A program made the translations under genes and the position numbers. A stretch of DNA of 32,670 bases from Chrysochromulina tobinii (lineage: Eukaryota). Of this stretch, positions 8,166 to 28,100 are shown in pieces. Positions within the stretch are counted from its first letter, which is position 1; every line of letters begins with the position of its first letter. The notes below the pieces were generated by a model. It was given only the letters and a program-made list of their open reading frames with translations. It had not been told where the DNA came from and made no database searches. The stretch lies in NCBI GenBank assembly GCA_001275005.1, contig JWZX01003304.1:1-32670 (forward strand), given 5' to 3'.

Positions 8166-9797
8166 TCATCCAAACATGCGGCGTGTCTCCTTGGCGATGA
8201 TCTCGATGGCCTCGTCGATCTGCGCAGCCGTGATGATCAGTGGCGGCGCGAGTCGGATGATGTGCTCGTGCGTAGGCTTGGCAAGAAGCCCAGCGTCCTT
8301 GTGCGCATAGCAGAGCGCGCCCGCATTCCGCTTCTCGCCCTCTGGCCGAATGACGATCGCGTTGAGCAGCCCCCGGCCGCGCACCGTTGTGACCGCAGCG
8401 CTCCCGATCGCCGCAAGCCCCGCGCGCAGCCTCTCGCCCATGAGGGCCGCGTTCTCGGCGAGCCGCTCCTCGCGTAGCACCTCGAGCGCCGCCATGGCCA
8501 CGGCGCACCCGAGAGGGTTGCCGCCATACGTGGAGCCGTGCTCACCCGGGCGGAGCGTGAGCATCACCTCGTCGCTCGAGAGCACTGCGCTCACTGGATA
8601 CACGCCACCCGAGAGCGCCTTGCCAAGCACGAGCACGTCCGGCTTCACCTGTGAACATTCATGCAATCAGAGGTCATCAGCATGCAATCAGAGGTCATCA
8701 GCATGCAATCAGAGGTCATCAGCATGCAATCAGAGGTCATCAGCATGCAATCAGAGGTCATCAGCATGCAATCAGAGGTCATCAGCATGCAATCAGAGGT
8801 CATCAGCATGCAATCAGAGGTCATCAGCATCGCAATCCAGAGGATGAGCACGTCCGGCTTCACCTGCTCGTAGTCACAGGCGAGCATCTTGCCCGTGCGG
8901 CACAGGCCTGTCTGCACCTCGTCGGCGATCATGAGTACGTTGTAGCGCGTGCACAGCTCGCGCACGCCTCGGAGGTACCCCTCGTGAGGCACTACCACGC
9001 CCGCCTCACCCTGGATAGGCTCGAGGGAGTCAAATGCGCTGTGGTGAGCACTTGCATGCAAGGCAGGTCATCAGTGGCAATCAACGCACCTGGATAGGCT
9101 CGAGCATAAAGCCAGCGATGCGTGCCCCGTCCTGGGCAAAGGCGGCCTCGAGCGCCGCAAGGTCATTGTACGGCACCAAGGGGACGCCGGGTAAGTAGGG
9201 GCCGAAGCCGGCGCGGCAGCTCGGGTCGGATGACGACGAGCACGCCGAGATCGTGCGCCCCCAAAAGTTATGGGTGCAGAAGAGTACCAGAGCCTCGTCC
9301 TTGGCGATGCCCTTGACGTCGTAGCCCCAGCGGCGCGCGAGCTTGAGCGCGGTCTCGCCGCCCTCGACGCCGGTATTCATCGGGAGCACGCGGTCGTAGC
9401 CAAAATACTCGGTCACGAACCGCTCGTACTCCCCGAGCATGTTGTTGTGGAAGGCACGCGATGTGAGCGTCAGCTTGGCCGCCTGCCGCTGCAAGGCGTC
9501 AAGGATCTTGGGGTGCGAATGACCTTGGTTGACAGCCGAGTATGCTGAGAGGAAGTCGAGATAGCGGCGCCCGGAGACATCCCAGACGTGCACGCCCAGG
9601 CCGCGCTCAAGCACAACTGGCAGCGGCGCGTAGTTGAACGCGCCATGCTCCACCTCGAGGGCGATCAGGCGAGCGGCCTCGTCGTGGTCGGCGGAGATGG
9701 CGGTGCTGCGCGCACGCGTGCCAGTGGCAAAGGCGCGAATCGCCCTGGGCCGCGCCGCACGGCGAGCGAGAGAGGGGACGAACATGTTGACGAACAT
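8166..9797 (-). CDS. OAT: Ornithine delta-aminotransferase, likely mitochondrial (~445 aa; exons 9797-9090, 9010-8864, 8648-8166)
   Basis: Motifs [77 protein letters not shown]-lysine [19 protein letters not shown] and IRLAPPL. The Arg/Ala-rich N-terminus resembles a mitochondrial presequence. Start is at 9797 or 9785. Confidence 0.95.
8649..8863 (-). other. OAT intron 2, 215 nt, phase 0, bounded by a 21-nt direct duplication
   Basis: GTGAAG...TTCACAG. Sense CAGGTGAAGCCGGACGTGCTC occurs at 8866-8846 and 8651-8631. Removal restores [18 protein letters not shown]. Confidence 0.92.
8661..8843. repeat. 21-nt minisatellite ATGCAATCAGAGGTCATCAGC x8 plus a degenerate partial copy, inside OAT intron 2
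   Basis: Eight perfect units at 8661-8828 (MQSEVIS x8 in the ORF track), then ATCGCAATCCAGAGG. Confidence 0.97.
9011..9089 (-). other. OAT intron 1, 79 nt, phase 0, bounded by a 16-nt direct duplication
   Basis: GTGCGT...CCTATCCAG. Sense CTCGAGCCTATCCAGG occurs at 9104-9089 and 9025-9010. Removal restores EPIQGEAG. Confidence 0.9.
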
Positions 9798-10225
9798 GTG
9801 TTCAACACAACTTCTAACCCCCCAAGCATGAGGGCCATTATCACATGGACGGAGGTGTGTCCGGACGGGGCCATCTTGCATCTACGATGTCGATGAGCGT
9901 GTGAACTCATGTGAACTCCGCAATTGAGTGAACTCCGCGCGAATGTGGAATGATGCGCGCGTATTATGGCGCGTATGTCCCGTCGGGGTACATGTGAATA
10001 TAGTCTGCGGTAACACTGTACGACTGTCAACACCGCACATAGTCAGCTTCCATCACACACACCGTAGTAAGTGCTCAGGTGGGAGCTCGGCCGCGTGATC
10101 ATATCCTATTGTGTCAGTTGATGTGATGGCTGTGCCTGTTCAGTGTCTGCCGTTCGTGTCTCGTCTGTGTGTCGTAGACCCGTGGGAGTGAGAGACTTAG
10201 CTCAGCCGCTATGTCCCCGGCGTAG

Positions 10226-25160: not shown

Positions 25161-28100
25161 ATGCCTTCCACAAAGGGTGGCCCTGCTCCTATGGAGACGA
25201 CCCCTGCGACCAGCGCCTCGCCTGCGGCGTCGAGGATGTCCCGCACGAAGCCCAACATGCCCGAGGAGTTTCTGGCCTCGCCCGTGCTCAACGGCCTCAG
25301 CTCCAAGCTGAGCTCCAAGCGCAAGGCTGAGACGCCCATGGGATGCCACCTCACGCAGATGACCCGCCTCCGCGACGGCCTCATCGCGGATGACAGCCAG
25401 CTCGACCTCCCCTACAACCGGAAGAAGGCGACGCTCATCCTGAGCGATGGCTCGCGCCATACGGGTTCCTCATTCGGCGCGGAGCGCTCGATGTCGAGCG
25501 AGGTGGTGTTCAACACGGCCATGGTCGGCTACCCCGAGTCGCTCACCGACCCGTCCTACCGCGGCCAGATCCTCACCCTCACGTTCCCGCTGATCGGCAA
25601 CTACGGTGTGCCGTCGGATGCTAAGGACGAGCTCGGGCTCCCCGCCTTCTTCGAGTCGGAGAAGGTGCACATCTCGGCGCTGCTCGTCTCGGACTACTCG
25701 CCCGACTCGTGCCACTGGAACCAGGTCAAGTCGCTTGGCGAGTGGCTCAAGGAGAACGGCGTGCCCGGCCTCACCGGCATGGACACGCGCGCCCTCACCA
25801 AGCGTATCCGGGAGCACGGCGCGATGCTCGGCAAGATCGTCTTCGAAGAGGACGACGAGAAGCTGGTGCCGCAGATCGATCCGAACTCGGACAACCTCGT
25901 CGCCCAGGTCTCGATCAAGGCGCCCAAGTTGTACACGTCATCGGTCGTGAGGCGCCTGAGCTCCTCGGGCAAGCCCATGCGGATCCTCGCGATCGACTGC
26001 GGCATGAAGGCGAACATCATCCGGTACTTCCTGTCCAAGGGCGTCGAGCTGCTGGTGGTGCCGTGGGACTATGACTTCCTCTCGGAGACGTACGACGGCC
26101 TCTTCATCTCCAACGGCCCCGGCGACCCGACGCAGTGCGGCGTGCTCATCAAGCGCCTCGCGGTCGCCCTGGCGCGCGAGGGCGCTGATTTCAAGCCCGT
26201 CTTCGGCATCTGCCTGGGCAACCAGCTGATCGCGCTCGCGGCAGGCTGCAAGACGTACAAGATGAAGTACGGCAACCGCGGCGCCAACCAGCCCTGCATC
26301 GACACGCGCACGGGCCGCTGCTACATCACCGCGCAGAACCACGGCTTCGCGGTCGACGTCTCGACGATCCCCGAGGGCTACCAGCAGCTCTTCGTCAACG
26401 CCAATGACGGCTCGAACGAGGGGCTCATCCACTCGACGAAGAACATCTTCTCGGTGCAGTTCCACCCAGAGGCATGCGCGGGCCCCACCGACACTGACTT
26501 CCTCTTCGAGATGTTCATGACCCGCGTCCAAGGGGCGTACAACCCGGTCACGACCTCGTACATCGCTCCGATCACCGGGCGCATGCAAAAGATCTTGCTG
26601 CTCGGCTCGGGCGGCCTCTCCATCGGCCAGGCAGGCGAGTTCGACTACTCGGGCTCGCAGGCGATCAAGGCGCTCAAGGAGATGCAGTGCCACATCGTGC
26701 TCGTCAACCCGAACATCGCCACCGTCCAGACCTCGGCTGGCATGGCCGATCGCGTCTACTTCCAGCCGGTGGTCGCCGAGACCGTCGCGCAGATCATCGC
26801 CAAGGAACGCCCGGACGGCATCTTGCTCCAATTCGGCGGCCAGACGGCGCTCAACTGCGGCGTCGAGCTCTACCGGAGCGGCGTGCTCGAAAAGTACAAT
26901 GTCAAAGTGCTTGGAACCCCTGTCGACGCCATCGTCGCCACCGAGGATCGCAAGATCTTCGCAGAGAAGCTGCGCGAGATCCACGAGAAGATTGCCGAGG
27001 GGCTCACGGCCGAGACGCCCGAGGATGTCGTGGCCTGCGCCCGCAAGCTCGGCTACCCCGTCATCCTGCGCGCCGCCTTCGCCCTCGGCGGCCTCGGCTC
27101 CGGCTTCGCCTCAAACGATGAGGAGTGCCTCGCGCTCGCGACCCAGGCCCTCTCGGGCTCCCCACAGGTGCTCGTCTGATGACTCCTCTGATGACTCCTC
27201 TGATGACTCTCGGGCTCCCCACAGGTGCTCGTCTGATGACTCCTCTGATGACTCCTCTGATGACTCTCGGGCTCCCCACGGGTGCTCGTCGACTGATGAC
27301 TGATATCTGATGGCTGATGACTGATGACTGATGCTCCCCTCAGGTGCTCGTCGAGCGCTCGTTCAAGGGCTGGAAGGAGATCGAGTATGAGGTGGTGCGC
27401 GACGCAGCGGACAACTGCATCACCGTGTGCAACATGGAGAACTTCGATCCGCTCGGCATCCACACGGGCGATTCGATCGTCGTCGCTCCCTCGCAGACGC
27501 TCTCCAACGCGGAGTACATGAAGCTGCGCTCAGTCGCCATCAAGGTGGCGCGTCACATCGGCATCGTGGGCGAGTGCAACATCCAGTACGCGCTCGACCC
27601 TGACTCGGAGGACTACTTCATCATCGAGGTGAACGCGCGCCTCTCGCGCTCCTCCGCCCTCGCCTCGAAGGCGACCGGCTACCCGCTCGCGTACGTCGCG
27701 TGCAAGCTCGCTCTGGGGGAGCAGCTCCCCGTCGTGCGCAACATGGTCACCAAGACGACGACTGCGTGCTTCGAGCCGTCGCTCGACTACTGCGTCGTCA
27801 AGTTCCCGCGCTGGGACCTGAACAAGTTCCGGAACGTGTCGGCCGGCCTCGGCTCGGCGATGAAGTCCGTGGGCGAGGTGATGGCCATCGGACGCAACTT
27901 TGCCGAGGCGATGCAGAAGGCGATCCGCATGGCGGCGCCGGGCACGCACGGATTCGAGCCCAAGCCGCCCTCGTCAACGGGCATCGGCGAGTTCGGCACG
28001 GAGGAGTCGTTCAAGCACGAGCTCGCCAACCCCACCGACCGGCGCGTGTGGGCGCTCGCCGCGGCATTCGAGTACGGCTACACGGTCGACCAATGCTTCC

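What the first reader, a model, noticed from the sequence alone, without database searches (positions are those of the whole stretch)
8631..27352. Candidate intron-generating system: exon-junction duplication plus branch-point-like satellite filler, seen three times independently
Seen: three introns in two unrelated conserved genes are bounded by long direct repeats of the exon junction. OAT-i1 has 16 nt, OAT-i2 has 21 nt and CPS has 20 nt with 1 mismatch. Each repeat contains CAG|G and each pair is offset by exactly the intron length, so splicing restores the original coding sequence. The duplicated window sits upstream of, downstream of, or straddling the junction respectively. All three fillers carry sense-strand CTGATGAC, and I see no terminal inverted repeats or ORFs. 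Known: DNA-transposon introners co-opt short target-site duplications as splice sites, and intron gain by repair of staggered double-strand breaks leaves short direct repeats. Inference: the long variable-length duplications with a shared repetitive filler fit neither model well. They suggest staggered cuts or slippage at proto-splice sites filled by iterative templated synthesis of a common motif.
Basis: partly seen in the sequence, partly recalled or inferred. Interest (0 to 1): 0.9.

Follow-up and report, generated by a model that had tools for sequence, protein, structure and literature searches.

The report
Introns that copy into look-alike sites
In the alga Chrysochromulina tobinii three introns are bracketed by long duplicates of the gene sequence they interrupt, and one is a copy of a repeated intron family whose tail matches the site where it sits, so such introns likely spread by homology-primed copying rather than as classical transposons.

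Summary
The junction repeats are exact at 16 and 21 nt (OAT) and 20 nt with one mismatch (CPS; the full duplicated unit is 27 nt). The CPS junction is spliced in RNA; OAT splicing is supported only indirectly. The window is very likely C. tobinii.

The fillers are not made de novo. OAT-i1 is one copy of a dispersed ~54-nt intron family (18 independent loci, sense strand wherever testable). OAT-i2's satellite unit is an amplified piece of it; the link of the CPS filler is unproven. OAT-i2 is cleanly absent from a second OAT copy in genomic DNA.

Main new result: the inherited 3' tail predicts the target hexamer (8 of 8 versus 0 of 10; 3 of 3 versus 0 of 15). Duplications vary in length and occur upstream, downstream or straddling. 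There are no TIRs. Best reading: microhomology-primed copying of existing introns at staggered breaks, with selection keeping spliceable outcomes.

Against: the i2 position is shared with another lineage, secondary remodelling occurs, and satellite introns without duplications exist. A published screen scored this genome zero introner families. This scan noted a similar footprint on another piece of this genome (e1-2577349).

The parts
8166..9785 (-). ornithine aminotransferase gene; exons 9785-9090, 9010-8864, 8648-8166
   Evidence: open frame after splicing; PF00202 homologues
9011..9089 (-). OAT-i1, 79-nt GT-AG intron: family element, carried tail, then 15-nt copy of the upstream exon end that supplies the acceptor
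   Evidence: RNA skip indirect
9036..9089 (-). dispersed family element (~54 nt) carrying the donor site, one CTGATGAC, a 12-nt palindrome (9051-9062) and the CTCAC branch-like motif
   Evidence: 46-nt core exact in 51 loci; contigs leave the window at 9036 and 9083-9093
9026..9038 (-). carried tail, partly shared with locus L035
9010..9025 (-). second copy of the 16-nt junction repeat (first copy 9089-9104)
8649..8863 (-). OAT-i2, 215-nt GT-AG intron: copy of the downstream exon start supplies the donor, then satellite and a family-like 3' end
   Evidence: skipped exactly in DNA contigs of X14 and X10; present in L042
8660..8843 (-). 21-nt satellite, 8.7 copies; unit plus 3' end is homologous to the centre and end of the i1 element
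   Evidence: (1 of 2000 shuffles reached the score)
8846..8866 (-). first copy of the 21-nt junction repeat (second copy 8631-8651)
25170..29986 (+). carbamoyl-phosphate synthase gene; exons to 27167 and from 27344
   Evidence: same splice in public model P0287
27168..27343 (+). CPS intron, 176 nt, GT-AG, built from repeated junction units and two fillers
   Evidence: RNA contig of X1 ends at 27176 and continues with the letters of 27353-27370
27150..27290 (+). 57-nt unit x2.5 = 27-nt exon-junction copy plus 30-nt filler of 12-mer repeats; the third junction copy has lost its AG
   Evidence: raised depth in DNA runs
27291..27343 (+). second filler (7-mer repeats) and family-like or duplicated acceptor region
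   Evidence: depth 800-1200 against about 40 in DNA runs

Best explanation
These introns are likely products of microhomology-primed copying: at a staggered nick or break in a gene, the broken end would pair with a look-alike stretch at the boundary of an existing family intron, copy all or part of it, and rejoin the gene upstream of where it left, which duplicates 6-34 bases of the target. Shown: the dispersed family, the variable duplications in three registers, inherited tails, the match between tail lineage and target, tandem arrays, and alleles that differ in tail. Inferred: the break, the priming and the direction of events. Outcomes survive only if a GT/GC and an AG fall exactly one insert length apart: the element gives the donor and the duplicate the acceptor (OAT-i1 type), the duplicate gives the donor and a 5'-truncated element the acceptor (OAT-i2 type), or the duplicate holds AG|GT itself (CPS type). 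A long new duplicate becomes part of the intron and can serve as the address for the next round. Satellites would arise later by slippage of an internal unit, and arrays by repeated insertion or unequal exchange between the repeats. The template is more likely genomic DNA copied by repair synthesis of the polymerase-theta type (about 0.3) than intron RNA copied by a borrowed reverse transcriptase (about 0.25); this was not resolved.
For: Family: 51 loci with the exact 46-nt core, 21 distinct flanks, 18 after merging alleles. Flanks of the eight loci of the main tail lineage share no similarity outside the element. Pfam-assignable hosts are on the sense strand in 6 of 6 (17 loci scanned). Junction repeats: median 11 nt over 23 family introns against 6 in two nulls; 5 of 5 found in flanks without selection have 17-28 nt, 4 of them of the downstream type. 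Tail lineage predicts the target hexamer: 8 of 8 versus 0 of 10 (Fisher p 2e-5) and 3 of 3 versus 0 of 15 (p 1e-3); these hexamers are 9 and 2 of 179 CAG sites in window coding DNA. The CPS target ends in the second hexamer. L015 shows a truncated family tail joined to a 15-nt target copy. Same-locus alleles differ in tail or unit number (L015/L029, L011/L034, L004/L027). OAT-i2 is skipped exactly in genomic contigs of 2 of 2 DNA runs laid. OAT-i1 site is empty in 122 of 122 other homologues.
Against: No enzyme or intermediate was observed. The 18 loci were selected by one exact core, so they are a young, biased sample. Five family copies have exact junction repeats of 7 nt or less. Six of 18 scanned loci hold two or more units, so insertion into existing introns happens. 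One lineage has an unrelated intron at the i2 position (5 of 92), and the empty second OAT copy could be a loss by recombination between the 21-nt repeats. No empty CPS allele was seen in 2 of 2 DNA runs, and CPS fillers do not align significantly with the i1 element (p 0.05 and 0.10). Some tail-target matches could reflect later conversion rather than target choice.
Confidence: 0.55

Rival explanations
1. Secondary remodelling: the intron positions are older, and duplications, tails and satellites were written into existing introns by local slippage and gene conversion among family copies; the empty OAT copy lost i2 by deletion between the repeats.
For: Shared i2 position in one lineage; a 99% identical CPS allele (P0139) starts its intron differently at the same site; arrays at 6 of 18 loci and tail swaps between alleles; L031 looks like a unit added at an existing acceptor.
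Against: OAT-i1 sits in a conserved motif with no intron in 122 of 122 other homologues; 87 of 92 read through the i2 site, including intron-retaining sequences such as P0004 and P0017; parallel gain at one site is common in Daphnia (PMC4202315, passages).
Confidence: 0.2
2. Non-autonomous rolling-circle (HUH/Rep) elements with a Replitron-1-like insertion signature that happen to carry splice signals.
For: Replitron-1 inserts right after RG, carries fuzzy right ends from the parental flank and makes variable target duplications (PMC10288648, section 9 read). Here 14 of 18 copies start with a 5-nt head directly after AG, tails are inherited, a 12-nt subterminal palindrome and arrays exist. A Replitron-like fragment is listed for C. 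tobinii.
Against: That Rep is a single incomplete fragment; the paper calls the signature non-canonical; downstream-type copies have variable left ends and fixed right ends; no terminal direct repeat of the element itself was evident; target homology to the tail is not part of the described signature.
Confidence: 0.15
3. One reading: staggered cuts or slippage filled de novo by iterative templated synthesis of a short common motif.
For: i2 and CPS fillers are locally amplified repeats, i2 unit number varies between assemblies, and Daphnia neointrons grow by repeated staggered breaks (PMC4202315, passages).
Against: i1 is a 46-nt exact copy of sequence at 17 other loci; the i2 unit and end derive from the same family; satellite introns in L014 and L045 have only 4-nt junction repeats.
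Confidence: 0.07
4. Assembly artefact or chance.
For: Short-read assemblies mis-count satellite units (8 against 7 units).
Against: Same junctions in an independent assembly, DNA depth raised on the CPS units, RNA junction seen; null.
Confidence: 0.01

Closest known systems
Introners of marine Chrysochromulina sp. MAGs (Gozashti et al. 2022, bioRxiv 10.1101/2022.06.06.494994 / PMC9860276)
   Same: No TIRs; element carries the 5' splice site and takes the 3' site from a target duplication; same genus; gene-biased.
   Different: Reported TSD is 4 bp; here 6-34 nt and variable, in three registers, with inherited tails that match targets. C. tobinii itself was scored 0 families in the 2025 screen.
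Replitron-1 / Replitron-N1 of Chlamydomonas reinhardtii (PMC10288648)
   Same: Left end after RG, parent-derived fuzzy right end, variable target duplication, subterminal palindrome.
   Different: Not described as intron-forming; 0.9-3.6 kb with a 6-bp terminal direct repeat and a Rep gene; no 5'-truncated, acceptor-carrying form described.
Daphnia pulex neointrons from staggered double-strand breaks (PMC4202315)
   Same: Terminal direct repeat from the adjacent exon, internal repeats, parallel gains at one site, polymorphism.
   Different: Repeats are 4-12 bp and the filler source is mostly unknown; here repeats reach 28-34 nt and the filler is a traceable family.
Target-primed reverse transcription by non-LTR elements and Penelope-like elements (PMC8557442 passages; TPRT features otherwise recalled)
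   Same: Variable duplication, 5' truncation with fixed 3' end, tandem insertions.
   Different: No poly(A) or microsatellite tail, 50-80 nt only, no partner identified.
Emiliania huxleyi introner fam24 (PMC12130899 Dataset)
   Same: Haptophyte, unclassified, annotated '10bp terminal direct repeats', co-opts 5' and carries 3'.
   Different: Five copies, automated TSD 2 nt; sequence relation to this family not tested.
Polarella glacialis and Symbiodinium ILEs (bioRxiv 10.1101/2020.10.14.339549)
   Same: Splice sites recruited from the duplication in several frames.
   Different: Fixed 3-8 nt TSD per class; several classes work in both orientations.

Membership tests
Introner (broad definition) | similar introns in many unrelated genes | tested here: met
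   18 independent loci with the exact core; applies to OAT-i1, by homology to i2, unproven for CPS
Introner (broad definition) | similarity reaches both splice boundaries consistently | tested here: not met
   3' tails and, in truncated copies, 5' ends vary
Introner (broad definition) | absent from orthologues (recent gain) | tested here: inconclusive
   met for i1 (122 of 122); i2 empty in a second copy but position shared with one lineage; CPS read through in P0140/P0292, whose genomic origin is not certain
MITE/TIR DNA-transposon introner | terminal inverted repeats | tested here: not met
   best near-terminal inverted repeat 3 nt
MITE/TIR DNA-transposon introner | fixed short target-site duplication | tested here: not met
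   exact junction repeats 1-28 nt over 23 introns
Replitron | left end directly after RG, fuzzy parent-derived right end, variable duplication | tested here: met
   14 of 18 scanned copies; not the downstream-type copies
Replitron | short direct repeat at both element termini | tested here: inconclusive
   none evident by eye; right terminus is ill-defined
Replitron | autonomous Rep element sharing termini | not testable with these tools
   no genome held; one incomplete fragment listed
Non-LTR (TPRT) mobilised element | variable duplication and 5' truncation with fixed 3' end | tested here: met
   4 flank-found downstream-type introns plus L020 and OAT-i2
Non-LTR (TPRT) mobilised element | poly(A) or simple-repeat 3' tail | tested here: not met
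   tails
Non-LTR (TPRT) mobilised element | partner reverse transcriptase | not testable with these tools
   no genome held
Staggered-break neointron (Daphnia type) | direct repeat of adjacent exon end at the opposite intron end | tested here: met
Staggered-break neointron (Daphnia type) | unique filler of untraceable source | tested here: not met
   filler is a dispersed family
Known structured RNA or self-splicing intron | Rfam match | tested here: not met
   0 matches at E<=1 over 8500-9300; CPS intron not scanned

The most novel reading that the evidence does not exclude
A transposase-free, address-carrying intron system: each intron keeps a copy of the exon end it landed in, uses that copy to find the next look-alike site in an unrelated gene, and founds a new target specificity whenever a long duplication is captured, so spliceosomal introns home by short homology and their target range evolves step by step.
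Probability: 0.35. Interest if true: 0.88.

Novelty: new variant of a known kind. Interest (0 to 1): 0.7.

Why it matters
How new spliceosomal introns arise without damaging the coding sequence is a long-standing question, and most explained cases are TIR transposons with short fixed duplications. Here a cultured alga with about one intron per gene (PMC4580454) shows a family with long variable duplications, traceable parent-to-daughter tails, an empty-versus-filled gene pair and allelic variation, so target choice, direction and enzyme dependence can be tested directly. It also points to a blind spot: published screens require consistent boundaries and drop satellite-driven families (PMC12130899 passages), which may be why this genome scored zero (inference). 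The same repeats offer a route to exact intron loss.

Tried and rejected
No whole genome was available and the contigs behind the loci are not held, so no genome-wide test was run. Prokaryote genome scans for two family motifs found nothing. Viral-contig scans gave nothing, chance matches in unrelated AT-rich or coding DNA and one contig with family sequence only at its end, taken as a chimera (L054). A search for the protein of the intron-less second OAT copy returned bacterial and animal sequences only. Local alignment of the CPS fillers to the i1 element was not significant, and the three other window introns gave p 0.01-0.07 in the same test, so weak scores there mean little. DNA folding of the element gave only -5.2 kcal/mol, no control run. 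Joint rows for the OAT introns in RNA were cut from the output, so that evidence rests on depth columns. The script stopped after four of six satellite tests; L015 and L035 there gave 7 and 5 nt with uncertain boundaries. Depth figures were not used as copy numbers. Literature searches found no description of this family; subscription papers are not covered, supplements 13-14 of PMC12130899 were not searched and the 2022 table was seen only in part (rows up to the 66th of 214 occurrences).
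Full report
Setting. The window is GC-rich eukaryotic DNA. A member of the CPS protein cluster is a public Chrysochromulina tobinii record on a contig of 32,670 bases, the window's length, and it is spliced as predicted here. 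The window is therefore very likely C. tobinii, a haptophyte with a 59-Mb genome and about one intron per gene (PMC4580454, passages seen). No whole genome was held.

Observation. The three repeats are at the stated places: 16 nt exact for OAT-i1, 21 nt exact for OAT-i2, and 12 exact or 20 with one mismatch for CPS, each offset by the intron length. One of 40,027 control GT/GC..AG pairs reaches 12 nt and none 16. The CPS intron is more complex than reported: a 27-nt junction copy plus 30 nt of filler forms a 57-nt unit repeated 2.5 times, followed by a second filler. An RNA contig (X1) ends at 27176 and continues with the letters of 27353-27370, the spliced junction; X17 shows the matching loose end from the other side. 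For OAT the RNA evidence is indirect: X1 has one depth value (4.81) on both sides of i2, none at 8781 and the window's letters; X18 has 4.46 on both sides of i1 and none at 9017; the joint rows were cut from view.

Presence and absence. In both DNA runs laid (flat depth near 40 over intergenic DNA and other introns), a contig skips exactly 215 bases at OAT-i2 and carries 4-6 other letters. The region 8.1-11.1 kb has two variants and higher depth, and the protein cluster holds two N-terminal types, so this is a second copy (paralogue or allele). Both types end at the i1 stop (15 of 15 cluster members shown), so i1 predates their split and i2 differs between them. The i1 site is read through in 122 of 122 other homologues; the i2 site in 87 of 92, the other five (one lineage) having an unrelated intron of about 88 nt at the same position. 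Most homologues are bacterial or may be transcripts; P0004, P0006, P0013, P0017 and the P0002 group retain introns elsewhere and so are informative. At the CPS site two DNA runs hold the intron, a 76% relative reads through, and a 99% allele (P0139) begins its intron differently.

OAT-i1 is a family copy. Its 46-nt core occurs exactly in 51 metagenome loci: 21 distinct upstream flanks, 18 loci after merging three allele pairs. In each DNA run 43-50 contigs leave the window at 9036 and 9-14 at each of 9083, 9092 and 9093, and bin depth is over 100 times background (not a copy number). Six of 17 loci scanned had a Pfam hit, all on the element's strand. Anatomy: target..AG, 5-nt head with GT or GC, core, carried tail, copy of the target. 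Exact upstream duplication had median 9 nt in 19 flanks against 3 in two nulls (two flanks dropped for short context). A stricter splice-compatible test over 23 introns gave median 11 against 6 (one marker at a locus edge skipped). The five introns found by chance in flanks had 17-28 nt, four of them of the downstream type with a 5'-truncated element, the OAT-i2 arrangement. The last i2 unit plus 3' end aligns with the element (1 of 2000 shuffles); the CPS fillers do not significantly, though a similar 12-mer filler occurs in L045 and the second CPS filler is repeated elsewhere. Satellite introns in L014 and L045 have only 4-nt junction repeats, so filler and duplication are separable.

Mechanistic clue. 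Tails fall into lineages defined by their first 12-14 bases, independent of the last six. All 8 loci of one lineage follow the same target hexamer against 0 of 10 others; all 3 of a second lineage follow another against 0 of 15. Their flanks are otherwise unrelated. If duplications merely overwrote the tail end at any AG, targets would not sort by lineage. L015 shows a truncated tail joined at a 2-nt overlap to a 15-nt target copy, while its allele L029 has a 28-nt target copy instead. L004 and L014 carry a head that resembles the exon start after L005. These patterns fit priming by short homology at one or both junctions, re-entry upstream, and continuing turnover. Six of 18 loci are arrays with internal AG|G sites.

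Mechanism. Best: microhomology-primed copying of an existing intron at a staggered nick or break, filtered by selection for exact splicing (0.55; DNA template about 0.3, RNA template about 0.25). Rivals: remodelling of older introns (0.2), a Replitron-1-like rolling-circle element (0.15), de novo motif synthesis (0.07), artefact (0.01). The role of polymerase theta and the TPRT hallmarks are recalled knowledge, not tested.

Comparison. Seen: bioRxiv 2022.06.06.494994 passages and part of the PMC9860276 supplement (Chrysochromulina MAG introners, 4-bp TSD, no TIR); PMC12130899 passages and supplement rows (C. tobinii 0 families; E. huxleyi fam24; filters on boundaries and satellites); PMC10288648 section 9, passages and supplement rows; bioRxiv 2020.10.14.339549 parts 1-2 of 4; PMC4202315, PMC8557442, PMC11282704 and PMC4580454 passages. 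It works like an introner and shares Replitron-1's insertion signature in one register, but it fails the consistent-boundary, TIR and fixed-TSD tests. Ten searches of the held library found no account of it; subscription papers were not covered.

Verdict. Real, well beyond chance, and a new variant of intron gain by a mobile family, with an unusual tail-to-target match that makes the mechanism testable. The sample is small and selected, the enzyme is unknown, and gain is firm only for OAT-i1. Interest 0.7.

Noticed in passing
window 24584-24630: A second very high-copy element, AT-rich, with a GT..AG stretch of about 42 nt and a CTAAT motif, upstream of the CPS gene; depth 16,000-18,000 against 40 and many contigs leaving at both ends.
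   Followed up: no
window 8100-11117: OAT plus the glutamine cyclotransferase gene appear in two variants with raised depth (58-70 against about 40), a likely segmental duplicate; the second OAT has a different N-terminus.
   Followed up: partly
window 27207-27290; L001, L002, L011, L028: Arrays create internal AG|GT or AG|GC sites that could be recursive splice points; in CPS the third junction copy has lost its AG.
   Followed up: no
protein P0139 (CPS, 99% identical): Ends after the junction with a different intron start than the window: a second intron allele or parallel gain at a site that mimics the family's 3' end.
   Followed up: partly
proteins P0006 and P0258 (Isochrysis galbana cluster): Read-through of an OAT intron at another position shows the last exon residues repeated inside the intron, perhaps the same kind of duplication in another haptophyte.
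   Followed up: no
window 12517-12789: CLPTM1 intron with a 10-mer satellite (11.5 copies) and no long junction repeat; a related 10-mer filler occurs in L014.
   Followed up: partly
window 21438-21516: DNA ligase intron, 79 nt, spliced in RNA run X18; weak similarity to the family only.
   Followed up: partly
window 8649-8863, minus strand: OAT-i2 is open in the coding frame for its whole length, so retention would add a 7-residue repeat before a frameshift.
   Followed up: no
window 8058-8160: 25-nt minisatellite just after the OAT stop codon.
   Followed up: no
L005, 3' end: A further intron with a different filler and a roughly 27-nt upstream duplication.
   Followed up: no
L054 4380-4554: Phage-like contig ending in family intron sequence, probably a mis-assembly.
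   Followed up: partly
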